Both the position numbers and the translations under genes were made by a program. A model generated the notes under the pieces. It was given only the letters and a program-made list of their open reading frames with translations, had not been told where the DNA came from and made no database searches. Positions 3,385 to 49,140 of a stretch of 64,000 bases of DNA are shown here, piece by piece (the stretch's first letter is position 1; each line of letters begins with the position of its first letter). Origin of the DNA: an uncultured bacterium (GTDB lineage: Bacteria; Verrucomicrobiota; Kiritimatiellia; RFP12; UBA3636). Location: contig CADBEF010000008.1 in NCBI GenBank assembly GCA_902793555.1, forward strand, positions 420 through 64,419, in the 5' to 3' direction.

Positions 3385-6143
3385 CGCGCCGCGAGCTCGT
3401 AGGCCATCGTCGGGGCGTTCGCGCCCTCGCCGGCGGCGATGCGCGCGGTGAAACGGTAGACGCCGTTCCCGTAGGTCGCGGGGACTTCGCGCAGGCGGGT
3501 GCCGTCCGCGGCGACCGCCCAGACCTTGAGGCCGGGGTTCGCGTTCTTGAGCGAGATCGTCGCCTCGCCCGCGGCGGCGAGGTACATGTCCGTGCACTTG
3601 TCGTTCGTGAACGCGGCGCCGGTGTTGCGGATGTCGGTGACGTGCAGGACGAGGACGCGCTTGGATTGCGCGAGGCGCGCGCCGTCCATCGACGAGGCGG
3701 AGACGGAGCAGAACGCGGTGACGCCCGAGACGGCAAGCGGGCCGGCGGAGAGGTCCGCCTTGCCGACCGAGCAGACGCCCGCCGTGCGCGGCGTGGCGAC
3801 CTGCAGCGTGCCCTTGTCGTGGTCGATCGCGATCTCGCGCGTGTCGGAGACGCCGGCCCTCTTGAACTTGGGGATCAGGTCCTTGTCCGCTTCGGTGTAG
3901 ACCTTGTCGACCGCGACGGCGGGCTTCCGGCCGCCGTCCGCGACGAACGAGCCGATGCGCGTGGTGTAGGCCAGCTGGGTGAACACATGCGGGAAGAGGC
4001 CCTTGGCCCACATGTCGCCGAGGCCGCCGCCGAACGCCTCGCCGGCGGTGACGCCGTAGGCGGCGGTCGCCTTGGCGGGCGAGGCGTCGCGCCGCCCGAA
4101 GAGCAGCGCGACCTGGCGCTCGGTGAGCTGGCCGATCGGGTCGGTCACGATGTCGAAGCCCTTCGCGGGGCACGGCTTGAACATGTTGGCCTGCGAGTGG
4201 CTCCACGCGAAGCGGTAGACGCCGTCCCAGTCCTGCAGCGAGGCGTACGCGCCCATCAGCAGGCCCGCCTCGGCGCGCCACTTCTTCGGGTTGCAGAAGT
4301 TCCACTCCGTCACGGTGAACGGCTTGCCCCACACGCGCGTGGGCGCCATCATGATCGGCGTCGCGTAGGTCGGGTGGCCGCTCTGGATGTCGGCCGTGTT
4401 GTTGATGTGGAACGCGGGCTTGCTGTAGTCGCCCTGCGGGTGGTCGCTGTACTGGTGGTTGTCCACGACCTCGAGCGCCTCGCGCTCGTAGGTCTGCTGC
4501 TGCGTGTCCCACCAGTTGCCGCCGGAGACCAGCGTCCGCACGCCCGCGTCGTGCAGGCGCTTGGCCATGCGGCGGTTCGCGTCCGCCTTCACCTCGTGGA
4601 CGAACTCGGCGAACTCCTTGTGCTTGCCGATGTCCTTCTTTTCGTACTGCGGGTAGCCCTTGCCCTTCGCCCACTCGTTGTACTTGGCGACGTAGACGTC
4701 CGCCGCGCCCCACCAGACGCTCGCGATCGAGTCCTCGTTGAGGAGCGTGACGAAAAGCACGGACGGCTCGTCCTTCCACTTCGCGCCCGTGTAGGGGTTC
4801 ACGTGGTCGAAGATCTCCATCGCGCGCTTGAACCACTGGTCCTCGGCGGGCCTGTGGATCGGGACGATCGCCTTGACGGTGTTGCAGTTGAGCGGCTTGT
4901 CGAAGCCCTCGCACGAGCCGAGGCACCCCATCGCGTAGAGGTCGAACGTGACGTAGATGCCGGCCTTCTTGCACGCCGCGAGGAGGTAGTCGAGGCGGTC
5001 GAGCTGCTCGGGCGAAATCTCCGGATAGGTGCGACGGTTCCAGATGTCGTTCCACTGGTCCTTCGTGATCGTCACGTCGATGTGGTGGAAGCGGATCGTG
5101 TTCCAGCCGCGGGCGACGAAGTCGCGTACGGCGCGGTCGGCCTGCTCCTTCGAGAGGAAGTTCGCGTCGAAGCAGAGGTTGCCGCCGACGAAGCGGTGCG
5201 GCGTCTTCTTCGCGTCCTTCTCGAACACGAAGTGGCCCTCGGGCGAGACGCGCGCGAAGCCGAACTTTCCCGCGGGCGCCTCGCGCGGCGTGACCTTCGA
5301 GAAGTCGAGGATCGAGCCGGGCTTCACGTCGTTCGTCCAGGGGAACGGCACCCACTTGTCGCCGGCCTCCATTTTCGCGGGCGGCGGCGGAAGGTCGAGC
5401 TTCACGACGCCCTTGCCCTTCTTGAGCGAGTCGGCGAACGCGCCGGAGAAATCGAACTCGATCGTCGAGCTCGCCGCGTTCTTCGCGTCCGGGAAGTCGA
5501 TTCGCAGCTCGAAGCGCTCGAGCTTGTCCTTGCGGCCGTCCCACAGGACCGGGTTGCCCTTCGCGACGGCGAGGCGGAACGTCTTGCCGCCGTCCTTCGA
5601 GACGAGCTCGATCGCGCCCTTGTCGCCGACGCCGATCCACTCCTGGCCGTAGTCGACCGGGAGCGGGGCGCCGGAGACCGTGCCGCCGGCGAAGTCGTTC
5701 AGCGCGAGCGGGAAGCGGACGTAGGCGCGCTCGAGCGCCATCGGCTTGCCGTCCTGCGAGGAAATGGTCCAGCGCACGCGCGCCTTGGCGGGGCCGCCCT
5801 TCGAGACGTCGAAGAACTCCTCGCGGATCGCGAGCCCGCGCGAGCCGGCCCAGATCTTGCCGGTGAAGAGCAGTCCGCGTCCGAGCGCGGGGTCGTCGAC
5901 CGACGCCTTCTTGCCCTCCTTCGTCGCGTAGTCCTGCGCCGTGAACTGCCAGCCGGGGCCGAACGCGACGAAGTTCGCGAAGCCCCAGTCGACCTTGTTG
6001 CCGTCGCGAACGATGCCCTGCACCTGCGGCAGGCCGCGCCCCTCGACGGAGATGTTCGCGGGCGTCTCGCCCCGCGCCGCGGGGACCGCGAGCGCCGCGA
6101 GGGCGGCGAGCGGGAAAAGGGATTGGAGGAACGAAGGCTTCAT
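3381..6143 (-). CDS. Secreted glycoside hydrolase, TIM-barrel clan GH-A (GH5-like)
   Basis: Signal peptide 'MKPSFLQSLFPLAALAALAVPAARG'. Candidate catalytic acid 'LLNEDS' (NEP-like) and nucleophile 'VTEWN' (TE-like). RBS-like AGGAGA upstream. Start chosen at the Met preceding the signal peptide (6143) rather than the ORF-track start 6260. Confidence 0.75.
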   Translation of the reverse strand: MKPSFLQSLFPLAALAALAVPAARGETPANISVEGRGLPQVQGIVRDGNKVDWGFANFVAFGPGWQFTAQDYATKEGKKASVDDPALGRGLLFTGKIWAGSRGLAIREEFFDVSKGGPAKARVRWTISSQDGKPMALERAYVRFPLALNDFAGGTVSGAPLPVDYGQEWIGVGDKGAIELVSKDGGKTFRLAVAKGNPVLWDGRKDKLERFELRIDFPDAKNAASSTIEFDFSGAFADSLKKGKGVVKLDLPPPPAKMEAGDKWVPFPWTNDVKPGSILDFSKVTPREAPAGKFGFARVSPEGHFVFEKDAKKTPHRFVGGNLCFDANFLSKEQADRAVRDFVARGWNTIRFHHIDVTITKDQWNDIWNRRTYPEISPEQLDRLDYLLAACKKAGIYVTFDLYAMGCLGSCEGFDKPLNCNTVKAIVPIHRPAEDQWFKRAMEIFDHVNPYTGAKWKDEPSVLFVTLLNEDSIASVWWGAADVYVAKYNEWAKGKGYPQYEKKDIGKHKEFAEFVHEVKADANRRMAKRLHDAGVRTLVSGGNWWDTQQQTYEREALEVVDNHQYSDHPQGDYSKPAFHINNTADIQSGHPTYATPIMMAPTRVWGKPFTVTEWNFCNPKKWRAEAGLLMGAYASLQDWDGVYRFAWSHSQANMFKPCPAKGFDIVTDPIGQLTERQVALLFGRRDASPAKATAAYGVTAGEAFGGGLGDMWAKGLFPHVFTQLAYTTRIGSFVADGGRKPAVAVDKVYTEADKDLIPKFKRAGVSDTREIAIDHDKGTLQVATPRTAGVCSVGKADLSAGPLAVSGVTAFCSVSASSMDGARLAQSKRVLVLHVTDIRNTGAAFTNDKCTDMYLAAAGEATISLKNANPGLKVWAVAADGTRLREVPATYGNGVYRFTARIAAGEGANAPTMAYELAAR

Positions 6144-6204: not shown

Positions 6205-6300
6205 GAACCCTCCGGACGCGTCCATTGATTCCGTGCCGAATGCCGGCAGTTTCCGTGCACGTCGTCCCGAGCGCGCTTGCCGCCCGGATGCGTTCTGCGC

Positions 6301-8111: not shown

Positions 8112-8139
8112 CCCGACCATCAAGACCATCCCGACCATG
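8112..8139 (+). repeat. Three 9-bp units (cccgaccat / caagaccat / cccgaccATG) ending in the start codon of the CE4 gene
   Basis: Member of the GACCATNNN leader-repeat family seen at seven gene starts. Confidence 0.85.
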
Positions 8140-9785: not shown

Positions 9786-9936
9786 GGGAGGGACGAGGGA
9801 CGAGTGACGAAAGACGGGGGACGAGGGAATCGTGGCGGGGAAAACGTTGGAAATCATACACGCAACGGTTCGGATTGTCACGAAGAATCGGGCAAGCGCC
9901 TGGCACGGATTCAAACAGGAATTGGCACAAAAATGA

Positions 9937-9965: not shown

Positions 9966-10014
9966 TAATGCTGTCTTCAGGATGAATTCCGACCATCTGC
10001 CCCCACCCGCACCG

Positions 10015-10055
10015 CATTCATCATTCAGCATTCAGCATTCAGCATTCAGCATTCC
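10015..10055 (+). repeat. Heptanucleotide microsatellite (CATTCAG)4 with partial flanking units
   Basis: cattca t cattcag cattcag cattcag cattcag cattcc. Lies in the 5' leader between the promoter candidate and ATG 10074. Confidence 0.95.
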
Positions 10056-10073
10056 ACTCAAATCCTCCCGACC

Positions 10074-11045
10074 ATGAACCGCATCATCCTCGCCACCCTC
10101 CTCCTCGCCGCTGGCGCGGCGCTCGCCGACGGCGCGCCCGATCCGAAAAAGGACCCTCGCCGCACCTACTCCACCGATGGCTGGGAGCTCGCCTGGAGCG
10201 ACGAGTTCAACGGCGCCGATCCGCTCGGCTACCTCGGGAACTGGCAGCACGAGGTCGGGTTCCTCCGCAACCACGAGCCGCAGTACTACACCAGCAACCG
10301 CGTCGCGAACTGCGTCCAGCGGGACGGCGTCCTCACGATCACGGCGCGCAAGGAGAAGTGGCCCAACCCGCTCTACAAGGACCGCGCGCTCGGCGGCTGG
10401 TACCGCCAGCGCGAGTTCGCGGACTACACATCCGCCGACCTCCAGTCGCGCCGCACGTTCCACTACGGGCGCGTCGAGTTCCGCGCGCAGATGCCCGGCG
10501 GCTGGGGCGCGTGGCCCGCGCTGTGGTTCCTCGGCGACTGCCTCCGCAAGCCAAAGGACGACCCCGAATACTACAACTGGCCCTGCTGCGGCGAAATCGA
10601 CCTCGTGGAGATCTGGGGAAACGCGCCGACCGGCGTCAAGGCCTGCCTGCACTCGTCGAAGATCGGCACGCGCGTGAAACCCAACGAGCAGCACACGGTG
10701 ACGGGCGGCGGCGAATTCCGCGCCAACCAGCCCGGCCAGGAGCCCTGGAACGGCTTCCACACCTACACGCTCGACTGGTACGAGGACCGGCTCTACATGT
10801 TCTACGACGGGCACCTCTACGCCGACGTCAACCTCGCCCGCAGCGACTGGCCGGACGGGCAGAACCCCTTCCGCAAGCCGATGTTCATCATCATGAACCT
10901 CGCCCTCGGCGGCTACGGCAACAAGGTCGTCGACGTGGACACCGTGGACGAGAAGAGCGGCAAGACGATTCCCGCCGCGAAGTTCCCGATGGAGCTGAAG
11001 ATCGACTGGGTGCGGCACTACCGCCGCGCCGGCTCCGCCGATTGA
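10074..11045 (+). CDS. GH16 beta-glucanase (laminarinase/licheninase-like), secreted
   Basis: Signal peptide 'MNRIILATLLLAAGAALA'. GH16 catalytic motif 'CGEIDLVE'. Preceded by 'tcccgaccATG'. Confidence 0.9.
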   Translation: MNRIILATLLLAAGAALADGAPDPKKDPRRTYSTDGWELAWSDEFNGADPLGYLGNWQHEVGFLRNHEPQYYTSNRVANCVQRDGVLTITARKEKWPNPLYKDRALGGWYRQREFADYTSADLQSRRTFHYGRVEFRAQMPGGWGAWPALWFLGDCLRKPKDDPEYYNWPCCGEIDLVEIWGNAPTGVKACLHSSKIGTRVKPNEQHTVTGGGEFRANQPGQEPWNGFHTYTLDWYEDRLYMFYDGHLYADVNLARSDWPDGQNPFRKPMFIIMNLALGGYGNKVVDVDTVDEKSGKTIPAAKFPMELKIDWVRHYRRAGSAD

Positions 11046-11064
11046 CGCCATTTCCATCCCGACC

Positions 11065-12384
11065 ATGAAACGAATCCTCCCGATCCTTCTCGTCCTCGCC
11101 GCCGCGCTCTGCGCCCCGCCCGCCGCCCGCGGCGCGGATCCCGCCGCGCCCTACGTTCCGACCTACGACGCCGAAACGGCGTGGTATTTGGGCGAGCTCG
11201 GCGTCACGAACCTTCTCGACGCCGGCATCACCGGCCGCGGCGTCCGGGTCGGCGTCATCGACTTCGGCATGGGCGACATCGTGACGGGAACGCGCACGAA
11301 CGTGCACTGCGCGGCGAAGGCCGGCCGGTCCCGCAAGGCCATGCACGGCCCGGCCGTCGAGGGCATCGTCGCCTCCGACGTCTACGGCATCGCGCCCGAA
11401 TGCGAGCTCTACGTCTACGACGACGGCGACGGCACCGTCGACGACCTGATCGCCGGCTTCGCCTGGTGCGCCTCGAACGGCTGCCGCGTGATTAACTACT
11501 CGGGCGGCGTCCACCGGTTCTCGCGGGGCGTCGTCGACCTTTCGGAGGAGGACGCCGCCGCGAAGCTGGAGGAGCTCCGCGACGCGGTCCGCGCGGCGAT
11601 GGGCGCGGGGTGCGTCGTCGTCGCGGCGGGCGGCAACGCGCCGAACGAGACGCTGACCTGCCCGCAGGACGTCGAGGGCGTGATCAACGTCGGCGGAATC
11701 ACGCGTTCGCGCCAGTCCGCCGGGCTCAACGACAACTGGTCGAAGGACTTCTGCGCCTTCGGCAAGGACGTGCCGGTCTTCGTCTCGCGCTCCGGCGCGA
11801 CCGGCCGGGAGAGCGGCTCGTCCTTCGCCGCGCCGATGGCGACCGGCCTCATCGCGCTCCTGCTGCAGCAGGAGCCCTCGCTCACGCGCGACGAGATCTA
11901 CGGCATCCTGGAATCCACCTCCGCGAAGCTCGCCGAGGGCCGCTCGAAGATCTACGGCTTCGGCCTCCTCCGGGCCGCGCGGGTCCCGGCGGACTACAAG
12001 CGCCAGGCCGCGTTCGACGCCGAGCGCGCCGCGTTCGTGCGCATGACCTCGGCCGAGCTCCTCAACGAGGGCCTCGGCTGGAACGCCGAGCGCGGCTTCT
12101 ACGAGGCGAAGATGCGTCCCGGCGAGTCGATCCGGCTGGAATACCGGGGCTTCCCCGGGAACGCCACCGACACCAACCTCTACTGGTACTGCGGCAACAT
12201 GCCGACCTTTTCGCCGATCGGCCTCGACCAGGTCCTTTCGATCCCCGCGAAGACGAAGCCCGGCGAGTTCCTCGTCTACGACGCCCGCAACGACGCGCGG
12301 CAGATCGTCTGCCGCCTCCGCGTCGACGTCGTCGCGCCCCCGCCCGCGGACTCGGCGCCCGCCGGCGCACCGTCGAAGCGCTGA
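11065..12384 (+). CDS. Subtilisin-like serine protease (S8), secreted
   Basis: Signal peptide. Asp in 'VGVIDFG', His in 'HGPAVEGIV', Ser in 'GSSFAAPMATG'. Preceded by 'catcccgaccATG'. Confidence 0.9.
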   Translation: MKRILPILLVLAAALCAPPAARGADPAAPYVPTYDAETAWYLGELGVTNLLDAGITGRGVRVGVIDFGMGDIVTGTRTNVHCAAKAGRSRKAMHGPAVEGIVASDVYGIAPECELYVYDDGDGTVDDLIAGFAWCASNGCRVINYSGGVHRFSRGVVDLSEEDAAAKLEELRDAVRAAMGAGCVVVAAGGNAPNETLTCPQDVEGVINVGGITRSRQSAGLNDNWSKDFCAFGKDVPVFVSRSGATGRESGSSFAAPMATGLIALLLQQEPSLTRDEIYGILESTSAKLAEGRSKIYGFGLLRAARVPADYKRQAAFDAERAAFVRMTSAELLNEGLGWNAERGFYEAKMRPGESIRLEYRGFPGNATDTNLYWYCGNMPTFSPIGLDQVLSIPAKTKPGEFLVYDARNDARQIVCRLRVDVVAPPPADSAPAGAPSKR

Positions 12385-17288: not shown

Positions 17289-18173
17289 ATGAACGAAACG
17301 ACGACAACGACGACGAACAGCGAGCCCCGGCTCGGATTCTGCTCCTGGCTTCTGCGCGGGCGGAGCCTGCCCGGCACGGTCGCGTTCCTGGCGGAGGCCG
17401 GCTACCGCTCCGTGGCGTTCCTGCAGGACGTGATGGGCGTCCGCGGGAGCGAGCGCGACGAGGCCGCCGCCGCGATCCGCGAGCTCGGATTCTCGATCAC
17501 CTACCACGGCTGCGTGCAGTGGTGGGTGGGACAGGACCAGCGCTTCGACGACGCGAAGGTGCAGGCCATGTTCGAGGACGTCCGCTGGTGGCACGAGAAC
17601 GCGGGCGGCGTCGTGTCGTGCTGCTCGGACCGCGTCGCCGGCCCGACCGAGGAGGGCCCCAACCGCCGCTACCTCGAGGGCGAGACGCGCCGCCTCGCGC
17701 AGCGCGAGCGCGACTTCTTCGAGCCGCTCGGCGTCGGCTACGGCATCGAGAACTGCTTCCACCGGTACTGCCTCCACGAGGAGATGCAGGGGCTCAAGGA
17801 CTCGGTCCCCTCCCCCGCCCCGCATCTCGGCTCGATCCTCGACGTCGGCCACGCGTACGTCCACGTCAACGTCGACCGGACGGACGGCATGTCCTTCGAG
17901 GAGTACCTCGACCGCATCCCCGTCCGCATCTGGGAGCTGCACATCACGGACAACCACGGCTCGGCCGACGAGCACCTCGCCCCCGGCGCGGGCACGCTCG
18001 ACTTCCGCGCGCTGCGACGTGCGATGGACCGCCGCGGCTTCGACGGCCCGATCTCCATGGAGGTCTGCAAGGACGCCGCGCACGGCGACAACTGCTTCGA
18101 CCTCTCGAACCCGACGCACCGCGACGCGATCCGGCGCATGCGCGACGACTTCCTCCAACTCTACGTGCCATGA
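17289..18173 (+). CDS. Sugar phosphate isomerase/epimerase (xylose-isomerase-like TIM barrel)
   Basis: 'LHITDNHGSADEHLAPGAGTLDF' metal-binding region typical of the family. 13 nt after the previous stop. Confidence 0.75.
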   Translation: MNETTTTTTNSEPRLGFCSWLLRGRSLPGTVAFLAEAGYRSVAFLQDVMGVRGSERDEAAAAIRELGFSITYHGCVQWWVGQDQRFDDAKVQAMFEDVRWWHENAGGVVSCCSDRVAGPTEEGPNRRYLEGETRRLAQRERDFFEPLGVGYGIENCFHRYCLHEEMQGLKDSVPSPAPHLGSILDVGHAYVHVNVDRTDGMSFEEYLDRIPVRIWELHITDNHGSADEHLAPGAGTLDFRALRRAMDRRGFDGPISMEVCKDAAHGDNCFDLSNPTHRDAIRRMRDDFLQLYVP

Positions 18174-19366
18174 GAAGAACGATCCTCCCCCTGATTTCCG
18201 CCGCCGCGCTTCTTGCGCCGGCCGCCAACGCCGCGGAACCCGCGGCCGCAACCGCCGAACTTCCCGCCTGGCGCGACGCGCAGGGCGCCGGGCGCGGTGC
18301 GTACACGGTCGCCGTCCTCGGCGACACGCACTTCGACGCGGCGCCGGAGTCGGTCTACCATTCGCACTACGACGAGTCCAACCGCTACGCGAAGGTCCAG
18401 CACGAGGAGTTCCGCCGCAACGGCGAGATGTGGGCCCCCGGCGGACGCTGCCGATCGCTCGTCGCCGCCGGCGCGGCGCTCGCCGCCGCGGACCCCGCCA
18501 CGCGCTTCGTCCTGCAGCTCGGCGACCTCGTGCAGGGCGACTGCTACGACGACGGCGACCACCGCCGGATGCTCGACGACGGCCTGGCCGCCGTCCGCGG
18601 CCCCTTCCCCGCGGGCCTGCCGTTCCTCGCGGTCCTCGGCAACCACGACTACCGCGGCGCCGCCAGCGCGCGCGGCGTCACCCTCCGCTGGTTCGACGAG
18701 CTCCTCTCGCGCGAGACCGGCGCGCCGGTCTCCCTCCCGCTCCTCTCCTTCCGCGTGGACGACGACCGCTGGATCCTCTGCGACTTCGAGACGGTGGACC
18801 TCCTCGCCCTCGCGCGCGAGGTCGAGTCCGACCCGGACGCGCGCTACGTGTTCCTCGTCACGCACGGCCCCCTCACCGCGCCGGACGCGGCGAGCTGGCG
18901 CTGGAGCCTCAGCGGCTGGCCGAACAAGGGCGGCTGCGGGCGCGGCGTCCAGGAGCTCTTCGAGGCGGTCTCGCGCCGCCGCGCCATCGTGCTCTCCGGC
19001 CACATGCACTGGACGGCCTTCTTCCGCAACGAGAATCCGCTCGGCGGCTACACCGAGCTCACCGTCAACTCCGTCTGGAAGTCCGACGAGATCGCCACCG
19101 CCGAACCCGTCAACGACACCCCCGCCCAGTACGGCCTCCGCCGCCGCGACAAGGTGAACGCATGGGACCTCAAGGACTACGACGCCGCGATCGCACGCTA
19201 CAAGGCGGGCCTGAAGGAATACTTCCTCGGCCTCGGCGCGGGCCACTACCGCCTCGAGATCTCCGACGACAAGGTCCTTGCGCGCTTCTATCCCGGCGCC
19301 GCGACCGAGCCCGCGCGCACGTTCGATCTAACCCCAGGCAAGCCGCTTTGCGGCCGTGACGAGTGA
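18170..19366 (+). CDS. Metallophosphoesterase (calcineurin-like), secreted
   Basis: 'VAVLGDTHFD', 'LQLGDLVQGD', 'VLGNHDY' motifs. Signal peptide 'MRRTILPLISAAALLAPAANA'. ATGA overlap with the upstream gene. Confidence 0.85.
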   Translation: MRRTILPLISAAALLAPAANAAEPAAATAELPAWRDAQGAGRGAYTVAVLGDTHFDAAPESVYHSHYDESNRYAKVQHEEFRRNGEMWAPGGRCRSLVAAGAALAAADPATRFVLQLGDLVQGDCYDDGDHRRMLDDGLAAVRGPFPAGLPFLAVLGNHDYRGAASARGVTLRWFDELLSRETGAPVSLPLLSFRVDDDRWILCDFETVDLLALAREVESDPDARYVFLVTHGPLTAPDAASWRWSLSGWPNKGGCGRGVQELFEAVSRRRAIVLSGHMHWTAFFRNENPLGGYTELTVNSVWKSDEIATAEPVNDTPAQYGLRRRDKVNAWDLKDYDAAIARYKAGLKEYFLGLGAGHYRLEISDDKVLARFYPGAATEPARTFDLTPGKPLCGRDE

Positions 19367-19423
19367 AGAGTGAAGAGTGAAGAGTGAAGAGTAAAGAGTG
19401 AAGAGTGAAGAATGAAGAGTGAG
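19361..19423 (+). repeat. Heptanucleotide microsatellite (GAGTGAA)n, 9 units (variants gagtaaa, gaatgaa, gagtgag)
   Basis: Overlaps the TGA stop of the phosphoesterase (19364-19366) and contains the first ATG (19412) of the next gene. Confidence 0.95.
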
Positions 19424-20872
19424 CGGATGGACCCTGACGCGGTCGAGCTCGCCCCGTTGCCGGCGCCGGTCGACTTCGAAAGCGACATGGACCGCCCCGT
19501 CCCGTTCGACGCGGGCGCGACGGTCCACCTCGACTGCCCGGATGCCGCCGCCGCGCCGTGGCTCGCCGCGCACTTCGCCGACTGGTTCGGCGCGCAGGCG
19601 CCGCGCGTCGCCCCCGGCCCCGCGGCGCTCCCGCTGCGCGCGGGCGACGAAGCCTACGCGGTCTCCGCCGACGCCTCCGGCGTCCGTATTGCCGCGCGCT
19701 CCCTCGCGGGCGTCCGCTGGGCGGCGTATTCGCTCCGCCAGCTCGCCATCGCCCGGCGCGGGACGCTGAGGACCGAGGGCCGCCTCCTGCCGACGCTGCG
19801 CATCTCCGACGCGCCGCGCCTCGCGCTGCGCGCCGTGCACCTGTGCTGGTTTCCCGAGACGCGCCCCGAGCGGATCGAGCGGGCGATCCGCCTCGCGGCG
19901 CTGCTGAAGTTCAACTGCGCCATCGTCGAGCCGTGGGGGACGTTCCGGAGCGCGCGGCACCCGTGGTTCGGATGGCCGGACGCCCCCGGCACGCCGGAAG
20001 CGCTCTCCCGGCTCGCCGCGATCGGGTGCGACCTCGGCGTGACGCTGGTTCCGCAGCTCAACGTCTTCGGCCACGCCTCCCTGTCGCGGACCTCGTCCCT
20101 CAAGCACGCGGCGCTCGACCTGCGGCCCGAGTACGAGCCGCTCTTCGAGCCGGGCGGCTGGAACTGGTGCCTCTCGAACCCCGAGGCGCGCCGCGTCCTG
20201 CGCGAGCTCGTCGACGAGATGCACGAGGCCTGCGGGCGGCCGCCGTTCTTCCACCTCGGCTGCGACGAAGCGCAGCCGCCGTCCTGCCCCGCGTGCCGCC
20301 GGCGCCCCTACGGCGAGCTCGTGCGCGAGCACGTCGCGGCGTTCGCCGCCTTCGTGCGGGAGCGCGGCGCCCGGGCGATGGTCTGGCACGACATGCTCCT
20401 CGACCGAGCCGACCCGCGCTGGGCGGGCTTCGTCGCCAGCGGAAGCCCGGCGACCGCGACGCTCGCCGACACGCTCCCGCGGGACGTCGTGGTCTGCGAC
20501 TGGCAATACGCGGACCCCGACCCGAAGCGGCCGCGCAACGACTGGCCGACGCTCGCCCACTTTCTCGGGAAGGGCTTCGCCGTGGCGGGGTGCCCGTGGC
20601 TCAACTTCGCCGCGATGGAGCCGATGGCGGCCTTCCTCGCGGCGCACGGCGGCCTCGGCATGATTGCGACCACCTGGCACCATCTGCACGGCACAGACTG
20701 GCGCGACATCTTCCGCACCGCGGCCTGCGCCGCCTGGGGGACGCCCCCGCGCCCCGTCGCGCCGCAGTTCGACACCGCGTTCGCCGTCGCCCTCCGCCTC
20801 GCCGGCCGCGACGCGGGCATTTCCGGCTACCGCGACACCGGCCTCGACGAGGACCAGATCACCCTGCCATGA
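19412..20872 (+). CDS. GH20-like beta-N-acetylhexosaminidase domain protein
   Basis: 'FFHLGCDEA' resembles the GH20 H-x-G-G-D-E catalytic motif, in a TIM-barrel-like context. Alternative start ATG 19427 (MDPDAV) lies just after the microsatellite. Confidence 0.6.
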   Translation: MKSERMDPDAVELAPLPAPVDFESDMDRPVPFDAGATVHLDCPDAAAAPWLAAHFADWFGAQAPRVAPGPAALPLRAGDEAYAVSADASGVRIAARSLAGVRWAAYSLRQLAIARRGTLRTEGRLLPTLRISDAPRLALRAVHLCWFPETRPERIERAIRLAALLKFNCAIVEPWGTFRSARHPWFGWPDAPGTPEALSRLAAIGCDLGVTLVPQLNVFGHASLSRTSSLKHAALDLRPEYEPLFEPGGWNWCLSNPEARRVLRELVDEMHEACGRPPFFHLGCDEAQPPSCPACRRRPYGELVREHVAAFAAFVRERGARAMVWHDMLLDRADPRWAGFVASGSPATATLADTLPRDVVVCDWQYADPDPKRPRNDWPTLAHFLGKGFAVAGCPWLNFAAMEPMAAFLAAHGGLGMIATTWHHLHGTDWRDIFRTAACAAWGTPPRPVAPQFDTAFAVALRLAGRDAGISGYRDTGLDEDQITLP

Positions 20873-24100: not shown

Positions 24101-26730
24101 TCTCGGACGGCGACGGCAACCGCCTCCCCTTCGAGATCGACACGTGGAACCCGGAGGGCGAATCGCTCGTCTGGGTCCGGCTGCCCGTCTTCGCCGACGG
24201 CGCGACGATCCACCTCGACTACGGCGCCTCGGACGCCGACGGCACCGCGGACGCCGCGGACGTCTGGCGGCGCTATGTCGCCGTCTGGCACATGAACGAA
24301 ATCCGCACGGACGCCGCCACGGGCAGACGCTACACCCCCGACTCCTCCGCGAGCGGCTGGCACGCCTACAAGTCCGTCGAGGCGGATGCCGTGCCCGCGC
24401 CCGTCACCGTCGCGGCCGGCGCCACCGCGCAGCCGACGCCCCCGACCGGCAGGGCGATGAACGTCGCCTTCGGCGCGGGGAAGTCGGATACGTCCGTCGG
24501 CGGCTTCGCGGTCCCCGCGAGCCAGACCGCCTCCACGACGCTGAACGGCCCCGGTTTCACGCTTTCGGCCTTCGTCAACTCGCATCAGGCCGCGAACAAC
24601 GGCCGCTGCCGCGTCATCGCGTTCGGAAACGCCTACAACGACAAGGCAAATCTCGCGGTCGGCAGCGACAGGATCTACAGCATGGGATCCAACAGCCACA
24701 ACAAGACCAATCCGAAGGGCGCGACGGGCTGGGTCCACGCGGCGGCCGTCTTCGGTTCGCCGCGGTCGAAGATCTACGCCGACGGCGTCTGCCTTTCCGG
24801 CAACAACGACGGCAATCCCGACCTCGCGAGTCTCGCGCTCGACAAAGGCATCGGACTCGGCTGCTTCACGGACGGCACGCAAAGCCTCGACGGCTACATC
24901 GACGAGGCGCGCATCCGCAACGCCGCCTCGACCGCTTCGTGGGCCGCCGCCGAGTACGCCGCGATGGCGGACCCGGACGTCGTCCGCTTCGGCGGGGCGC
25001 GCTACCTCGAGATGCCGGTCCTCGAAGCGCCGCCTTCCCTGGCCTGGTACCGGAACGGGTTCGTCCACTCCGCCACCGTCGCCTACGGGCGCGGCGACGT
25101 GCTCCTCGCGACGGTCGACCTGTACGACGGTTCCGCGACCACGAACGCGGCGCACTCGTTCGATTCGGCCGCCTCGCTGCCGCAGGCGCTATCGGAGAAC
25201 GTCGAACTCCCGGAGAACCGGATGTACCGGGGCGTCGCGATTCTGCGCTCGCCGGACGGCTCGGAGGAAGATCTCGCGGCCGCCCGCGAGACGGTCTACT
25301 CCGGATCGATTTCCGTCACGTGGGTCCGGGACGCCGACATCGCGGCGATGACGCCCGCCATCGTCCGGCTTTCCCGCGCGGACACCGAGGCCGCGACCTG
25401 CGCGCCTCTCGAAGTGTCGTTCGCGCTTGCCGGCGAGGCGGTCTCGAAGGGCCTTGTCGAGCCCGTCGCGTCCGCGACGATTCCGGCCGGGGAAAGCTTC
25501 GTCGAGGTCGAGATCCGGCCGATCGCCCGGAGCGTCGTTCCCGGCGACTACCTCGCGACGCTGACGGTCGCGGGGACGAACGTCGCCCGTCCCGGCGCGC
25601 AGGTCGAGTTCGGCGTCCGCAACGCCGGCGCCGACCCCTACGTGCGCTACGTCGCCCCGAACGGCGACGACGGGAACGACGGCGCGCTCGCCACGACCCC
25701 CAAGCGGACCGTCGCCGCGGCCCTCGCCTCGTTCTCCGAGAACGCCCGGTCGGTGCTCTGCACGGTCCGCGTCGCCCCGGGCCTCTACCCGGTCTCCTCG
25801 CCGATCGTGCTCACGAACGCCGTCCGCATCATCGGCGACGACTCCGATCCGTCCCGCGTCGTCGTGTCGAACACGACGAACGTCGACTATTACAACCAAA
25901 ACCACCGGTGCATCCGGATCAACCATGCCGATGCCGTGGTTTCGGGAATGACGTTCGAGAACGGAAAAGACTACGGCAACGGCGGCAACCTCCGCATCGA
26001 CGCGAACGGAGGCATGGTCACCAACTGCATTCTGGTCAACGGTTACACGCGCGAAGGCAGCGATTCCGGCGGCGCGAACGTGGCGATCACGGGCCCCGGA
26101 CTCGTGACGCATTGCCGGATTCTCGGCGGCAGCCAGAACAACTGCAGCGGCTGCAAACGGGTGTCCTCGGTCTGTCTCGAGCATGCGGACGCCCGGATCG
26201 AGAACTGTCTCGTAAGCGGATTCCGGGGAGCGACGGTTTCCACCCAGCCAACCGTGGGATGCGCCGGAATCCTCGTCGACAAAGGAGCCGCGATCAACTG
26301 CATGGTCGTGGATTGCACGTCGCCCTACACGACGGCATCCGGCTTCGCGGGAATCCTGCTGTGGGCGAACGGTCGCGCCGTGGACTGCGTTTCGGTCGGC
26401 AACGTCGACAGCAACGGCACGGTCCGCGCGTTCATGGCGTCGCAGGCGACCCGCGCGATCAACTGCGCGTTCGACGCGATCGCCGGCGAGGCGGTCGTTC
26501 CGGAAGGCATGGTCGGCGCCGTCGTCGGCACGCCCGCGTCGTTCTTCCGCAACTACGCCCGCGGCGACTACCGCCCGCGCAGCGGCGGGCCGCTCGTGAA
26601 CGCCGGCGCGAACTACGAGCCGATGGCGGGCGTCGACCTCTCCGGCGTCCAGCCGCGCAAGGTCGGCTCCCGCGTCGACATCGGATGCTACGAAGCCTTC
26701 GCCGAAACTTCGATCCTGATCCTGAGATGA
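21139..26730 (+). CDS. Giant secreted multidomain protein (1863 aa): discoidin-like N-domain, Ig/FN3-like repeats, two right-handed beta-helix domains, DUF2341-like and LamG-like modules
   Basis: Signal peptide 'MKLRFLPAVAILLSLLAPAARA'. RBS AAGGAG 7 nt upstream of ATG. Beta-helix signature 'NQNHRCIRIDHAGAVVSG...GGMVTNCIL' occurs twice. Ends '...ETSILILR'. Confidence 0.85.
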   Translation: MKLRFLPAVAILLSLLAPAARAEEVTLPAGYVPVNLVTNVGGSASSDTKCLNNNSSYGVSRAFDKKYYSDDTRWIGHGSTFPQHAVWTFPDPTIVDTVRIYNASYDGAKQSPSDFTIAGSNDGSDWTTLDTESGVTGWSANKFRTFQFVNRTPYLKYRLEVTDVQGHSRMSISEIELYRVNQASFDVVPSGSPAVGIDSFSTDWILAVEEGSTADAGLVWSTDDSFATATTNSLGTGLAAGTRTASLADLEPATTYWWKIYADNGTDVAESTIGSFTTTGSPLFGAVSAASDGNAASFSVALAEAALGNTLSTSVSVLYGTDGETWTALPLGSSATPAAMSGTLENLDWGTTYQWFALATATMEGGRVLSTSTSTNSFTTLWDGDLYVSNGNASAEAPYSTWATAAPDIATAISLATDGATIHVAPGRYKISTSLSLAKAVRIVGNDADPSRVVVSNTGDVSYSEQNHRCIRIDHAGAVVSGLAFENGKVYGQGGNVLIGSNGGMVTNCILSGGYARSGTSSAGANVSIQGPGRVTHCTILGGWQNNCTGCTKTSSAHVGHADARMENCLVDGFRGSDVSSQATKNACGIYVEKGVAANCTVVNCTSPYTEASGFAGILIPTNDGLALNCVSVANADSNDTVRAFVPSQVSRTSHCAFDAIAGEAAVPEGMAGAVVGTPESFFPRFADDAIAAIKYRPGPSSPLLDAGEDYAPMAAFDLSGQQPRRVGASVDIGCYEDGYLAIEATGEPTVGLESFATDFVLGTDVPADVWIVWSADASFAAASTNRVAEGATNGVHEAAVGGLATDTAYWWKLVATNGVFAVETAPASFRTLGAPVIGTLSEAVSGPTVTFSVDLASVARDALGNGIRTYVTVFCSTNGTDWIEQSLGSAIRARTVLGAATLPNGVWTWYARASAESGGRTFAAESGTRTFRVFHNATPPAGFRRVDVEIAYDGEPAEDIPVLLRLSEAIEGFRYADVANDGRDFLFSDGDGNRLPFEIDTWNPEGESLVWVRLPVFADGATIHLDYGASDADGTADAADVWRRYVAVWHMNEIRTDAATGRRYTPDSSASGWHAYKSVEADAVPAPVTVAAGATAQPTPPTGRAMNVAFGAGKSDTSVGGFAVPASQTASTTLNGPGFTLSAFVNSHQAANNGRCRVIAFGNAYNDKANLAVGSDRIYSMGSNSHNKTNPKGATGWVHAAAVFGSPRSKIYADGVCLSGNNDGNPDLASLALDKGIGLGCFTDGTQSLDGYIDEARIRNAASTASWAAAEYAAMADPDVVRFGGARYLEMPVLEAPPSLAWYRNGFVHSATVAYGRGDVLLATVDLYDGSATTNAAHSFDSAASLPQALSENVELPENRMYRGVAILRSPDGSEEDLAAARETVYSGSISVTWVRDADIAAMTPAIVRLSRADTEAATCAPLEVSFALAGEAVSKGLVEPVASATIPAGESFVEVEIRPIARSVVPGDYLATLTVAGTNVARPGAQVEFGVRNAGADPYVRYVAPNGDDGNDGALATTPKRTVAAALASFSENARSVLCTVRVAPGLYPVSSPIVLTNAVRIIGDDSDPSRVVVSNTTNVDYYNQNHRCIRINHADAVVSGMTFENGKDYGNGGNLRIDANGGMVTNCILVNGYTREGSDSGGANVAITGPGLVTHCRILGGSQNNCSGCKRVSSVCLEHADARIENCLVSGFRGATVSTQPTVGCAGILVDKGAAINCMVVDCTSPYTTASGFAGILLWANGRAVDCVSVGNVDSNGTVRAFMASQATRAINCAFDAIAGEAVVPEGMVGAVVGTPASFFRNYARGDYRPRSGGPLVNAGANYEPMAGVDLSGVQPRKVGSRVDIGCYEAFAETSILILR

Positions 26731-27869: not shown

Positions 27870-27937
27870 CACCACCCCGCCACGCCCCGGGTGGGGTCGC
27901 ATGGCACGGATTCAGCCAAGATTCGGCACGGAAACAA

Positions 27938-28012: not shown

Positions 28013-28073
28013 GCCCAGACCATCCAGACCATACGACCATACGACCATACGACCATCTGACCATCCGACCATG
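28013..28073 (+). repeat. Leader repeat array: seven degenerate 8/9-bp units (cagaccatc cagaccata cgaccata cgaccata cgaccatc tgaccatc cgaccATG) ending in the start codon
   Basis: Preceded by the conserved module 'cggccgtacgccagcccaga', which recurs at 37465-37487. Confidence 0.9.
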
Positions 28074-32042: not shown

Positions 32043-32218
32043 TCGCGGTTCCGTCCGAAGGAAGGACCGACATGGCAGAATCCTCGCAAGTGGCAGCCGC
32101 CGACCACGCGCGCCCCGGGCCCGACTGGCGCGCGGCGGGCGGCCTCTTCCATCTCTTCGAAGCGCTCTGGCGCGGATTCTGCCAGGGTTCGGCGCTGCCA
32201 GGCCTCCGTTTCGCGCGC

Positions 32219-37483: not shown

Positions 37484-37512
37484 GTCCAGACCATCCGGAC
37501 CATCCGACCATG
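37484..37512 (+). repeat. Leader repeat (cagaccatc cggaccatc cgaccATG) ending in the GH16 start codon
   Basis: Same family as 28013-28073, with the same upstream 'cggtcgtacgccagtcca' module. Confidence 0.9.
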
Positions 37513-38411: not shown

Positions 38412-38493
38412 CTAGCCCATCCAGACCATCCCGACCATCCCGACCATCCCGACCATCCCGACTATCCAGACCATCCAGACCATCCCGACCATG
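38412..38493 (+). repeat. Tandem array of nine 9-bp units (consensus GACCATCCC; one 'gactatcca' variant) ending in the ATG of the GH10-like gene
   Basis: cccatccagaccatcccgaccatcccgaccatcccgaccatcccgactatccagaccatccagaccatcccgaccATGccc. Confidence 0.95.
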
Positions 38494-39933
38494 CCCTCCC
38501 CGCTCTCCCCCGCCTACTACGACCGCTGGAACGCCGACGAACAGGCGCGCATCGACGCGGACATCGAGAAATACCGCAAGGCCGACGCGACCGTCGCGCT
38601 CGGTGCCCCCGCCGGCGCCGAGGTGACGGTCGAACAGACCACGCACGCGTTCCGCTTCGGCGCGCACACGTTCAACTTCGACCAGCTCGGCTCGCACGAG
38701 CGCAACGAGCGCTACAAGGCGCTCTGGAACGGCGCCTTCGCCGACGGCGCGCTCTTCAACTCCGGCACCATCGCGTTCTACTGGCGCCCGTTCGAGCCCG
38801 TCGAGGGCAAGATGCGCTTCGACCCCGCCCCCGAGGACTCGGAGGACTGGTGGAACGCCTGCCCCGACCCGAAGGAGCAGCGCTTCTGGCGCCGCCCGCC
38901 GAGCGAGCCCGTCGTGCGCTTCCTGGAGGACAAGGGCGCCTGGCGCCACGGCCACCCGCTCGTCTGGTCCAACCACGAATGGCACTATCCGGACTGGCTC
39001 ATGGCGAAGCTCCCCAAGGAGATCATGGCCGAGATGCTCACGGACGACCGTTCCGGCGTCTCGATCATGAAGCAGCCGATGGAGACGGTCCTCAAGCGGC
39101 TCCCCGCGGACTTCCCCGCCCAGGTCGAGTCCGCGCACCGCCGCCGCATCGAGGCCATCGCCGCGCGCTACGCCGACCGCGTGGACAGCTGGGACGTCTG
39201 CAACGAGAGCGCGAACGACTGGACCGCCGGCCGGCTCGTCCGCGGCGCCCCGCTCTCCCGCAGCTACCGCTTCTCGTGGCTGCCCGGCGACTACTGCCAC
39301 TGGGCCTTCCGCGAGTGCATGCGCCTCTTCCCCGCGAAGAGCGTCCTCTCGATCAACGACTACCAGCTCGACGCCGACTACGCCGAGCAGACGCGCGACC
39401 AGCTCGCCCGCGGCGACAAGATCGACCTGCAGGGCATGCAGATGCACCTGTTCAACCCCGCGGACTGCGAGGCGATCGCGCAGGGGAAGATCGAGCTGCG
39501 CTCGCCGGCGCACGTCCGCTCGCAGATCGCCGCCGCGCACGCGCGCCCCGGCCTGCCGATCCACCTCTCCGAGATCACGATCTCCGCGCCCGGCGGCGAC
39601 GAGCGCGGCGAGGTCGTCCAGGCCGAGATCGCCCGCAACCTCTACCGCCTGTGGTTCTCGCTGCCGGACATGGTGGCCATCACCTGGTGGAACGTCGTCG
39701 ACGACTGCGGCGCGCCCGGCGAGCCGTCCGTCTCGGGGCTCTTCCGCCGCGACATGACGCCGAAGAAGGCCTTCTTCGCGCTCGACCGCCTGATCAACGA
39801 CGAGTGGCGCACGCGCCTCACGGCGAAGGCCGACGCCACCGGCGCCGTCGCCTTCCGCGGCTTCCGCGGCTCCTACCGCCTCTCCTGGCGCGACGCCTCC
39901 GGCGCGTCCTGCGAAGCAACCACATCCATCTAG
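38491..39933 (+). CDS. GH10-like glycoside hydrolase (clan GH-A), xylanase-type motifs
   Basis: 'WDVCNE' (catalytic acid motif WDVVNE-like) and 'HLSEITISA' (nucleophile ITE-like). No signal peptide. Confidence 0.7.
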   Translation: MPSPLSPAYYDRWNADEQARIDADIEKYRKADATVALGAPAGAEVTVEQTTHAFRFGAHTFNFDQLGSHERNERYKALWNGAFADGALFNSGTIAFYWRPFEPVEGKMRFDPAPEDSEDWWNACPDPKEQRFWRRPPSEPVVRFLEDKGAWRHGHPLVWSNHEWHYPDWLMAKLPKEIMAEMLTDDRSGVSIMKQPMETVLKRLPADFPAQVESAHRRRIEAIAARYADRVDSWDVCNESANDWTAGRLVRGAPLSRSYRFSWLPGDYCHWAFRECMRLFPAKSVLSINDYQLDADYAEQTRDQLARGDKIDLQGMQMHLFNPADCEAIAQGKIELRSPAHVRSQIAAAHARPGLPIHLSEITISAPGGDERGEVVQAEIARNLYRLWFSLPDMVAITWWNVVDDCGAPGEPSVSGLFRRDMTPKKAFFALDRLINDEWRTRLTAKADATGAVAFRGFRGSYRLSWRDASGASCEATTSI

Positions 39934-39975
39934 ACCAACCCGACCATCAAGACCATCTAGACCATCTAGACCATG
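39934..39975 (+). repeat. Leader repeat (ccgaccatc aagaccatc tagaccatc tagaccATG) ending in the GH2 start codon
   Basis: Same 9-bp family. Contains in-frame TAG codons, so it is not translated from upstream. Confidence 0.9.
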
Positions 39976-49000: not shown

Positions 49001-49140
49001 GGCGGGATTCGGGTTTCGGGAGACGGGTTTCGCGGCGGGTTTCGGCGCGGCGCCGTCGCGCCGCGGGCGGGTTTCGCGAAACCCGAAACCCGAGTCCCGC
49101 GGCGAATCCCGAAATCCGAATCCCGAATCCCGAAATTGCA
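49001..49140. repeat. Imperfect long inverted repeat built from GGGTTTC / GGGATTC heptamers, centred on the 16-bp palindrome gggtttcgcgaaaccc. The right arm is (CGAATCC)-like x5
   Basis: gggattcgggtttcggg...gggtttcgcgaaacccgaaaccc...gaatcccgaaatccgaatcccgaatcccgaaa. Confidence 0.85.

What the first reader, a model, noticed from the sequence alone, without database searches (positions are those of the whole stretch)
19361..19423. (GAGTGAA)9 microsatellite bridging a stop codon and the next start codon
Nine heptamer units begin inside the TGA stop of the metallophosphoesterase. They contain the first ATG (19412) of the GH20-like gene; a second ATG (19427) follows immediately. Slippage by one unit (7 bp) would shift the upstream stop and alter which start is used. 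The CATTCA core is shared with the 10015 repeat.
Basis: seen in the sequence. Interest (0 to 1): 0.65.

Follow-up and report, generated by a model that had tools for sequence, protein, structure and literature searches.

The report
Heptamer microsatellite between two operon genes
A real nine-copy 7-base repeat fills the gap between two genes of an uncultured gut or rumen bacterium and supplies the second gene's start codon, but it is one of many such spacer repeats in this group, and gaining or losing copies changes only the gap length, not either protein.

Summary
The (GAGTGAA)9 array at 19361-19423 is real and far beyond chance. It carries the TGA stop of a Metallophos gene in unit 1 and the first ATG of a GH20-like gene in unit 8.

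Simulated gain or loss of any unit never changes the upstream ORF. It leaves the GH20 product unchanged in 15 of 18 cases; the other three only remove 5 N-terminal residues. The "CATTCA core" is absent.

The window comes from an uncultured gut/rumen Kiritimatiellae. In 1.23 Mb of related loci, heptamer arrays dominate (74 with at least 4 copies versus 1 in a surrogate), are depleted from coding sequence, and most differ by whole units between relatives.

At this locus a sister lineage (about 96% nt identity) has the homologous array 2 units shorter. Near-identical assemblies are identical. Other relatives lack the array because the gene order differs, so it sits at a young rearrangement junction. 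The array-borne ATG 19412 is the likely ancestral start.

The RNA is C-free and unstructured, has stops in all three frames, and pairs only weakly with the anti-SD.

Verdict: a slippage-generated intergenic heptamer repeat serving as spacer and leader. It is a new lineage example of a known kind, at most a graded tuner, not an on/off switch.

The parts
19361..19423 (+). (GAGTGAA)9 heptanucleotide array: 6 perfect units plus GAGTAAA (unit 5), GAATGAA (unit 8) and GAGTGAG (unit 9). TRF extends it to 19356 through a degenerate unit GTGACGA.
18170..19366 (+). Upstream gene, calcineurin-like metallophosphoesterase (398 aa). Its TGA stop at 19364-19366 lies inside unit 1 of the array.
   Evidence: Pfam PF00149, 31.8 bits against a cut-off of 21.5; the same gene call appears in public assemblies; orthologs at 75-93% identity
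19412..20872 (+). Downstream gene, GH20-like (GH20b plus GH20 catalytic domain), 486 aa from ATG 19412 in unit 8. An alternative in-frame ATG at 19427 would give 481 aa.
   Evidence: Pfam. The sister lineage has only the array-borne ATG, since 19427 is AAG there. N-terminal length matches the 83%-identical homolog in L170 residue for residue.
17289..18173 (+). AP_endonuc_2 (xylose-isomerase-like TIM barrel) gene. It overlaps the Metallophos start by ATGA. Operon-like context.
   Evidence: the ortholog in L004 abuts the GH20 gene directly
9788..9828 (+). Sibling array of the same unit family (GAGGGAC/GAGTGAC/GAAAGAC x5.9). Read on the minus strand it forms a C-rich leader ending 2 nt before the ATG (9786) of the minus-strand AraC-type gene.
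10014..10054 (+). Sibling array (GCATTCA)x5.9 in the leader of the GH16 gene that starts at 10074.
28018..28072 (+). Sibling array (GACCATNC)x6.8 that runs into ATG 28071.
38417..38492 (+). Sibling array (CCATCCCGA)x8.4 that runs into ATG 38491 (GH10 gene).
39917..39974 (+). Sibling array (CCATCTAGA)x5 with the same architecture as the finding: the stop TAG 39931-39933 of the upstream gene lies in an early unit and ATG 39973 of the next gene lies in the last unit.
49003..49135 (.). Paired inverted arrays (GGGTTTCG... / CGAAACCC...) that form a long hairpin between two minus-strand genes. This is the structured variant of the same repeat habit.

Best explanation
The array is a heptanucleotide simple-sequence repeat made and resized by strand slippage, which adds or removes whole units. 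It is one of many such arrays that fill intergenic spacers in this gut/rumen Kiritimatiellae lineage. It arose at a young gene-order junction that placed a GH20-like gene directly behind a metallophosphoesterase gene, and it now forms the whole 45-nt intercistronic spacer. Each unit contains TGA and 7 is not a multiple of 3, so the array closes all three reading frames right after the upstream gene. It contains no C, so its RNA cannot pair with itself, and the start codon sits in an open, purine-rich leader with only weak Shine-Dalgarno-like GAG/GUGA motifs. A point change in one unit (GAGTGAA to GAATGAA) supplied the ATG that the GH20-like gene uses. Unit gain or loss changes only the spacer length (38, 45, 52 nt and so on). 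Any effect on expression is therefore a graded change in translation initiation or re-initiation of the downstream gene, not an on/off frame switch. Shown: the repeat, its position, that the ORFs are invariant to unit changes, whole-unit differences between lineages, lack of RNA structure, and the lineage-specific origin. Inferred: slippage as the mechanism, co-transcription of the two genes, and any tuning effect.
For: The array is real and non-random. ORFs are invariant under unit gain or loss. The homologous array in L084/L088 is exactly 14 nt (2 units) shorter and has different unit variants, while the GH20 gene is 96-98% nt identical over its 3' 1.0-1.3 kb. Most other orthologous arrays differ by whole units: CGGATTCT 7 vs 2 copies at 98% flank identity, AGCTTAG 135 vs 58 nt, AAATCCGGA 37/64/73 nt. 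Heptamers dominate: 74 arrays with at least 4 copies in 1.23 Mb against 1 in an order-3 Markov surrogate. Arrays are depleted from coding-like frames, 25% vs 60%, Fisher p = 5e-10. Arrays that start in or next to the upstream stop codon and carry stops in all frames recur across the clade, and one more is in this window (39917-39974). RNA of 19300-19500 folds worse than 194 of 200 shuffles and the array is unpaired in the centroid structure. The array has no inverted partner, no promoter- or terminator-like site and no Rfam family. On origin: L004 is syntenic but lacks 18174-19430. In the Metallophos orthologs L169-L171 the gene overlaps the next gene by ATGA with no array. In L173 the next gene is on the opposite strand, 6 nt after the stop, also with no array. 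In L170 the GH20 homolog (83% identical) lies upstream instead. The array-borne ATG is the only in-frame ATG in L084/L088, and it gives the same N-terminal length as L170. The literature describes this class: heptamers are the commonest long SSR, intergenic, close to the end of the upstream ORF, and variable in length between close relatives (PMC4679880; PMC4692102).
Against: No within-species length variation was seen. Two other assemblies at 99.5-100% identity have identical copies of this array and five others, so ongoing slippage is inferred only from between-lineage differences. Anti-SD pairing of the leader (-7.1 to -7.9 kcal/mol) is barely above random 25-mers from the window (-5.25 +/- 2.9), and it was computed with an assumed canonical 16S tail. 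A positive role in ribosome recruitment is therefore unproven. Co-transcription is inferred only from the absence of predicted signals, and the scan covers sigma-70-type promoters only. Some GAGTGAM-type arrays recur at non-orthologous loci in other species, which simple local slippage does not by itself explain. A few orthologous pairs give non-integral length differences (for example -27 and -48 for a heptamer array), so not every comparison is clean.
Confidence: 0.6

Rival explanations
1. The array is a functionally neutral by-product. It is slippage-prone filler that accumulated at a new gene junction, has no effect on expression, and happens to contain the stop and a usable ATG.
For: Arrays of many unrelated units fill spacers throughout the clade, in both orientations. 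The array is absent from close relatives with other gene orders, without obvious harm. SD-like pairing is only weak. Unit sequences drift between lineages.
Against: The array supplies the only in-frame ATG in L084/L088, so at least that part is functional. It has been retained in both lineages since they split. The region is less structured than shuffles in a 70% GC genome, and all three frames are closed; both are what selection on an intercistronic region would favour.
Confidence: 0.25
2. The array is a contingency locus, a phase-variation switch. Slippage by one unit would move the upstream stop or switch start codons, turning the GH20-like gene (or the coupling between the genes) on and off.
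For: It is a non-triplet SSR of 9 units touching both a stop and a start. Copy number differs between lineages. Heptamer SSRs upstream of hmw genes modulate expression in H. influenzae (PMC2651432).
Against: No unit change alters the upstream ORF. 15 of 18 leave the GH20 product identical, and the other three only remove 5 residues. Near-identical assemblies are identical at six arrays. No promoter-like site lies in or near the array whose spacing could be altered. The GH20-like protein has no signal peptide and is not a typical phase-variable surface product.
Confidence: 0.05
3. The array is a binding-site array for a single-strand nucleic-acid-binding protein acting on the mRNA leader, for example a cold-shock-domain protein, ribosomal protein S1, or an oligomeric NAG-N4-type binder. 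Such a protein would regulate or drive translation of the GH20-like gene.
For: There are nine evenly spaced GAG triplets in an unstructured, C-free leader that overlaps the start codon. The same GAGTGAM unit recurs at unrelated loci and in other species. MacGregor proposed S1, Csp or CsrA-type binders for TAACTGA heptamer arrays that overlap start regions (PMC4679880). A Nostoc preprint reports that deleting heptamer repeats changes recO reporter behaviour.
Against: Units across the clade are very diverse and occur in both orientations relative to genes, which does not fit one sequence-specific binder. There is no GGA motif for CsrA. No candidate protein could be examined from a 64-kb window. 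The array is missing in close relatives.
Confidence: 0.1

Closest known systems
Long simple sequence repeats with 5-11 nt units, especially intergenic heptameric SSRs (Mrazek et al. 2007 as summarised in PMC4679880; Xanthomonas GGGAATC and Nostoc GGGGAYT arrays, Rehm et al. 2015, PMC4692102)
   Same: Tandem heptamers far longer than chance. Heptamers are the dominant period in the lineage. Arrays are mostly intergenic, between co-directional genes, and close to the end of the upstream ORF. Length and sequence vary between close relatives. Polymerase slippage is the proposed origin (here).
   Different: The lineage is different (Kiritimatiellae, PVC superphylum), and I found no prior description for it. 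There are many unit families rather than one dominant unit. This unit is not G-quadruplex forming. Here the array touches both the stop and the start codon.
TAACTGA heptamer direct repeats of marine Beggiatoaceae (MacGregor 2015, PMC4679880)
   Same: [quoted passage not shown] A translational role has been proposed but not shown.
   Different: The unit sequence is different. Those sets have 2-6 copies against 9 here. A single unit dominates that genome, whereas here many units coexist. Here the start codon itself lies inside the array.
H. influenzae hmw1A/hmw2A upstream (TGAAAGA)n heptanucleotide repeats (Dawid et al. 1999, as described in PMC2651432)
   Same: A purine-rich 7-nt unit containing TGA (TGAAAGA, against TGAAGAG when this array is read in rotation), upstream of the coding sequence. 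Unit number is reported to modulate expression in a graded way rather than by frameshift.
   Different: The hmw repeats lie about 70-100 bp upstream in a promoter/5' region of a surface adhesin, and they vary among strains of one species. Here there is no promoter signal, the position is intercistronic, the enzyme is cytoplasmic-type, and no variation is seen among near-identical assemblies.
Cyanobacterial tandem heptanucleotides (the three heptanucleotides of Calothrix PCC 7601, called STRR in my recollection; Nostoc heptamer repeats near start codons, bioRxiv 10.1101/2022.06.06.494920)
   Same: Tandem heptamers scattered through non-coding DNA, often near start codons or promoters. Their function is unresolved, with hints of effects on transcription or translation.
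   Different: Different units and phylum. Membership of those sequence families is excluded by sequence.
Classical SSR contingency loci (intragenic tetranucleotide or homopolymer tracts)
   Same: Slippage-prone tandem repeat with a non-triplet unit.
   Different: This array is not inside an ORF or between promoter elements, and unit changes do not alter reading frames.

Membership tests
Intergenic heptameric long SSR (LSSR) | Head-to-tail iterations of a 5-11 nt unit, longer than expected by chance | tested here: met
   9 units, TRF score 113; 0.00 matches expected in shuffles
Intergenic heptameric long SSR (LSSR) | Located in non-coding DNA, typically close to the end of the upstream ORF and between co-directional genes | tested here: met
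   It fills the 45-nt spacer between two + strand genes, and the stop lies in unit 1. Clade-wide depletion from coding frames, p = 5e-10.
Intergenic heptameric long SSR (LSSR) | Lineage-wide over-representation of period 7 relative to other periods | tested here: met
   74 arrays of period 7 against 15 (period 6), 17 (period 8) and 10 (period 9) in 1.23 Mb; the surrogate gives 1. This is a sample of loci, not whole genomes.
Intergenic heptameric long SSR (LSSR) | Copy number differs between related genomes by whole units | tested here: met
   Window vs L084/L088 differ by -14 nt, and several other orthologous arrays differ by integral units. A few pairs give non-integral differences.
SSR phase-variation (contingency) locus | Unit gain or loss changes a reading frame or promoter spacing so that expression switches | tested here: not met
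   All 18 single-unit changes leave the upstream ORF intact, and 15 leave the downstream product intact. No promoter-like hexamers lie in or near the array.
SSR phase-variation (contingency) locus | Length heterogeneity within populations or among strains of one species | tested here: inconclusive
   Two other assemblies at 99.5-100% identity are identical at six arrays. No reads were available. Contig ends inside the array (L002, L085) are uninformative.
TAACTGA-type start-proximal heptamer repeats | Unit sequence TAACTGA | tested here: not met
   The unit is GAGTGAA
TAACTGA-type start-proximal heptamer repeats | Array directly 5' of, or overlapping, the start codon and the ribosome-binding region | tested here: met
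   ATG 19412 lies in unit 8
Shine-Dalgarno ribosome-binding site | Strong complementarity to the 16S 3' tail 5-10 nt upstream of the start | tested here: inconclusive
   -7.1 to -7.9 kcal/mol with bulges, against -5.25 +/- 2.9 for random 25-mers. The 16S tail was assumed, not read from this genome.
Intrinsic terminator / REP-like hairpin | Inverted repeat that forms a stable stem | tested here: not met
   No inverted partner; folds worse than shuffles, z = +1.89; no terminator-like site. By contrast, window 49003-49135 does form such a hairpin.
Known structured RNA family (Rfam) | Match at gathering score | tested here: not met
   0 matches in the whole window

The most novel reading that the evidence does not exclude
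Gut and rumen Kiritimatiellae may use heptamer arrays as modular intergenic elements. Stop-proximal, G-rich arrays would close all three frames. Start-proximal, C-rich arrays without an SD (GACCATCC...ATG, with the over-represented CCGACC-ATG context) would act as leaders. A single-strand-binding factor with a 7-nt register might read them. On this view heritable changes in unit number act as rheostats that set the stoichiometry of enzymes in polysaccharide-degradation operons, and arrays can even donate new start codons when genes are rearranged, as appears to have happened here.
Probability: 0.1. Interest if true: 0.65.

Novelty: new member of a known kind. Interest (0 to 1): 0.35.

Why it matters
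For this locus the practical message is about annotation. The GH20-like gene most likely starts at the array-borne ATG 19412, and the repeat should not be read as an on/off switch. More broadly, this uncultured, polysaccharide-degrading gut lineage joins the short list of bacteria whose spacers are packed with heptamer repeats (Xanthomonas, Nostoc, Beggiatoaceae), whose function is still unknown. The locus gives a dated example: a repeat that formed at a new gene junction, supplied a start codon, and has changed by two units at about 4% sequence divergence. Such arrays also break short-read assemblies and can mislead gene callers, which matters for MAG-based catalogues of rumen enzymes.

Tried and rejected
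**Same-species length polymorphism.**
- Exact-protein look-ups for GH20, Metallophos, AP_endonuc_2 and two other array-flanked genes returned only identical copies or contigs that end in the array.
- The metagenome scan found no same-species copy; the best match was 88-89%.
- I considered contig ends inside the array (L002 starts at 19365, L085 likewise) as a sign of heterogeneity. I rejected this. The break points do not match where a de Bruijn branch between unit-number alleles would fall, and that sample is fragmented elsewhere too (L165 ends 87 nt into the Metallophos gene).

**Signals looked for and not found.** There is no Rfam family, no sigma-70-type promoter or intrinsic terminator, no inverted partner, and no open + strand frame through the array (stops in all three frames).

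**Methods that did not work well.**
- A quick GC3-based gene caller mis-called several genes, including missing Metallophos, so I replaced it with direct stop/start proximity tests.
- Single-linkage clustering of heptamer units was not discriminating, because random units also chain. I used it only as a list of recurrences.

**Ideas set aside.**
- The G-rich bias of stop-abutting arrays is partly forced by the C-free stop codons, so I did not treat it as independent evidence of function.
- A Rho/rut-related reading (C-poor sense strand, C-rich antisense strand) and a HutP/TRAP-like NAG-N4 reading came from memory only and could not be tested.
- The CATTCA link to the 10015 array was rejected.

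Full report
**Observation.** Window 19361-19423 is nine tandem heptamers: GAGTGAA x4, GAGTAAA, GAGTGAA x2, GAATGAA, GAGTGAG. TRF calls 19356-19422 with period 7, 9.6 copies, 91% matches and score 113. A three-unit probe with up to 3 mismatches hits only here, with 0.00 hits expected in shuffles. The window is 69.6% GC, and the array is a narrow purine-rich dip with essentially no C.

The upstream ORF 18170-19366 is a calcineurin-like metallophosphoesterase. The downstream ORF carries GH20b and GH20 catalytic domains. All three Pfam hits are above the curated cut-offs. The TGA stop (19364-19366) lies in unit 1. ATG 19412 lies in unit 8, where the G>A variant creates it. ATG 19427 follows 4 nt after the array, in frame. 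Independent public assemblies carry the same array (L001/L164 100% identical), so it is not an artefact. The claimed CATTCA core is absent on both strands.

I simulated deletion and duplication of each of the nine units.
- The upstream product is always the same 398 aa ending ...LCGRDE*, because any unit change regenerates GAC GAG TGA.
- The GH20 product is unchanged in 15 of 18 events.
- Only deleting unit 8, deleting unit 9 or duplicating unit 9 moves initiation to ATG 19427, giving a protein 5 residues shorter. These are the imperfect units, which are the least slippage-prone.
- What does change is the stop-to-start spacer: 38, 45 or 52 nt.

The frame-based switch is therefore not supported.

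**Organism and wider context.** Homologs of the GH20-like protein come from uncultured Kiritimatiellae MAGs of goat, sheep, yak, cattle and human gut. The best species-representative matches are 79-83% identical.

Other short-period arrays in the window sit immediately 5' of start codons. They are at 9788, 10014, 28018, 38417 and 39917. The array at 39917-39974 has the same architecture as the finding: the upstream stop is in an early unit and the next ATG is in the last unit.

Across 162 sequences (1.23 Mb) from relatives, arrays with at least 4 copies have these periods: period 7, 74 arrays; period 8, 17; period 6, 15; period 9, 10. An order-3 Markov surrogate gives one period-7 array. Arrays of period 7/8 are depleted from coding-like frames, 21 of 83 against 2305 of 3868 random segments, Fisher p = 5e-10.

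G-skewed arrays whose units contain a stop codon (AGCTTAG, TAGTGGC, GAGTGAC and others) typically begin in or next to the upstream gene's stop. C-skewed arrays typically end within about 0-20 nt of the next ATG. So "array begins inside the stop codon" is a recurrent arrangement. It is partly forced, because an ORF reading into such an array ends at the first in-frame stop.

GAGTGAM-type units recur at non-orthologous loci in several species: window 9788, L050 twice, L045/L046, L161 and L090. Some arrays come as inverted pairs that fold into long hairpins. Window 48990-49150 on the minus strand folds at -99.7 kcal/mol with z = -6.7. The finding's array has no such partner.

**Variation.**
- Most orthologous arrays differ by whole units: CGGATTCT 7 vs 2 copies at 98% flank identity (L087/L006), AGCTTAG 135 vs 58 nt, AAATCCGGA 37/64/73 nt, and others at +/-7 to 28 nt. 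A few pairs give non-integral differences.
- At the finding's own locus, the sister lineage L084/L088 is 96-98% nt identical over the 3' 1.0-1.3 kb of the GH20 gene and 88-89% aa identical overall. It has the homologous array exactly 14 nt shorter, with units GAGTAAC GAGTGAC GAGTGAA GAGTGAA GAGTGTC AAATGAA GAGTGAG.
- Two other assemblies at 99.5-100% identity (ERZ27280399, ERZ28613933) are identical to the window at all six arrays they cover.
- So the arrays change on the scale of a few per cent sequence divergence. Very fast switching is not indicated, but no read data were available.

**Origin and start codon.**
- L004 is syntenic with the window, but its AP_endonuc_2 gene abuts the GH20 gene with a 4-nt spacer, so window 18174-19430 (Metallophos gene plus array) is absent.
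- In L084/L088 only the last ~70 nt of the Metallophos gene and the array remain, fused to a new signal-peptide start as a 39-aa ORF.
- The closest Metallophos orthologs (93%, 87%, 84%) diverge right after the conserved ...TFDLTPGKP. In L169-L171 the gene overlaps the next gene by ATGA; that gene is PGA_cap in L169 and has no Pfam on record in L170/L171. In L173 the neighbour is on the opposite strand, 6 nt past the stop. None has an array there.
- In L170/L171 a GH20 homolog (83% identical in L170) lies upstream of the Metallophos gene instead.
- The Metallophos-array-GH20 junction is therefore a derived rearrangement shared only by the window and L084/L088.
- Homology to the L170 GH20 gene begins at (G/A)ACCC(T/C)GAC, so the codons MKSE(R/Q), including ATG 19412, are array-derived. 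The window's second ATG is AAG in L084 and CCG in L170, so it is a later change. From 19412 the protein has the same N-terminal length as L170. I conclude that 19412 is the likely start.

**RNA-level properties.**
- RNA of 19300-19500 folds worse than 194 of 200 shuffles (z = +1.89), and the array is unpaired in the centroid structure.
- No sigma-70-type promoter or intrinsic terminator was found, and no Rfam family matches in the window.
- The unit gives stops in all three + frames.
- Pairing of the leader with an assumed canonical anti-SD is -7.1 to -7.9 kcal/mol, against -5.25 +/- 2.9 for random 25-mers. The C-rich GACCATCC-type leaders have almost none, about -0.4 to -1.5.

**Interpretation.** The best-supported reading is a slippage-generated intergenic heptamer SSR that serves as the intercistronic spacer and translation-initiation leader at a young gene junction. 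Any effect of copy number is at most graded. The rivals are pure neutrality (0.25), a protein-binding array (0.1) and a true phase switch (0.05).

**Comparison with known systems.**
- Heptamers are the commonest long SSR class in the bacteria that have them, possibly because of how polymerase slippage works (Mrazek 2007, via PMC4679880).
- Xanthomonas and Nostoc heptamer arrays are about 90% intergenic, lie close to the upstream ORF end, sit mostly between co-directional genes, and vary in length between close relatives (PMC4692102).
- Beggiatoaceae TAACTGA arrays lie directly 5' of start codons that lack an SD.
- H. influenzae hmw (TGAAAGA)n repeats modulate expression.
- A Nostoc preprint links heptamer repeats to recF/recO regulation.
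- I found no report of such arrays in Kiritimatiellae.

This is therefore a new lineage example of a known kind.

Noticed in passing
window 8131-8139, 10068-10076, 11059-11067, 28065-28073, 38485-38493 (also 37504-37512 and 26508-26516 on the minus strand): CCGACCATG occurs 7 times against 0.45 expected, and five of those are at predicted gene starts. The GACCATCC-type arrays at 28018, 38417 and 39917 look like tandem copies of this start context and have essentially no anti-SD pairing. This may be an SD-independent initiation context.
   Followed up: partly
window 40635-40675: (CGACCATCC)x4.7, the same unit as the leader arrays, lies in frame inside the GH2-type ORF 39973-41649 and encodes ...VDHPDHPDHPTIQT... 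between domains.
   Followed up: partly
GH20b loop between APKV and EAY: L004 6250-6291, L022 6189-6226, L117 1777-1814, L017 876-909, L106 2682-2714, L090 2712-2745, L099 2420-2455, L116, L144, L154, L012, L120. The equivalent window region is about 19600-19645 and has no array.: In many homologs of the finding's own GH20-like gene, one loop is encoded by in-frame tandem 7/8/9-nt arrays (CAACCTTT, AACTTTC, AAGCTYC, ACTGGCAAC), the same unit types as the intergenic arrays. Gain or loss of one 7- or 8-nt unit there would shift the reading frame, yet most orthologs keep the same length.
   Followed up: partly
window 49003-49135: Two inverted arrays (GGGTTTCG-type and CGAAACCC-type) between two minus-strand genes fold into a hairpin of -99.7 kcal/mol (z = -6.7). 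Similar inverted array pairs occur in L018 4903-5063 and, by eye, in L030, L031, L037 and L063. They could be terminators or RNA-stabilising elements.
   Followed up: partly
window 37159 (gene 32328-37370): Relative to scaffold L166 (ERZ28613933), the window lacks 28 nt (CGGGCCTGCCCGCCGGCACCGTCACGGG) between ACGGGC microhomologies. This frameshifts the last ~70 codons of a 1702-aa Laminin_G_3/DUF2341 protein. It is either a strain variant or an assembly error.
   Followed up: partly
window 9901-9913, 27902-27914, 32168-32180, 6226-6238 (minus strand): A conserved box TGGCACGGATTCA...GATTCGGCAC lies about 90-170 nt upstream of four genes (10074, 28071, 32328 and 6143 on the minus strand), followed by -10-like TATAAT/TATTAAT/TAGGTT. 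It is probably a shared operator or promoter element.
   Followed up: partly
L087 994-1051 vs L006 about 3990-4010: (CGGATTCT) has 7 copies in one metagenome contig and 2 in the species-representative MAG, with 98% identical flanks. The adjacent (AACTTYY) array is unchanged.
   Followed up: yes
L084 about 470-590 and L088 about 2350-2470: A 39-aa ORF (MKRILPILLVLTAALDAATEPARTFDLTPGKPLRGSDE*) fuses a signal peptide, with a GACCATCCCGACC-ATG start, to the last ~24 codons of the Metallophos gene. It is a deletion remnant that still ends in the array.
   Followed up: partly
L170 2161-2293 and L171 1102-1234: In relatives with the order GH20 then Metallophos, the 133-nt spacer holds (CATTCACG)x3 and (AACCATCCA/AACCAACTG)x4 ending in AACC-ATG. 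Arrays therefore also fill the alternative junction between the same two genes.
   Followed up: partly
L043 3939-4106: (ACGAACC)x24 (168 nt) lies inside an apparently open, coding-like frame of a membrane-protein-like ORF.
   Followed up: no
L050 7416-7500 and 12473-12560: The same composite element, (GAGTGAC)n then agtgaatgaagaatggg then (ATTATGGC)n, follows the stop codons of two different genes in one genome. This suggests spread or gene conversion of whole intergenic cassettes.
   Followed up: no
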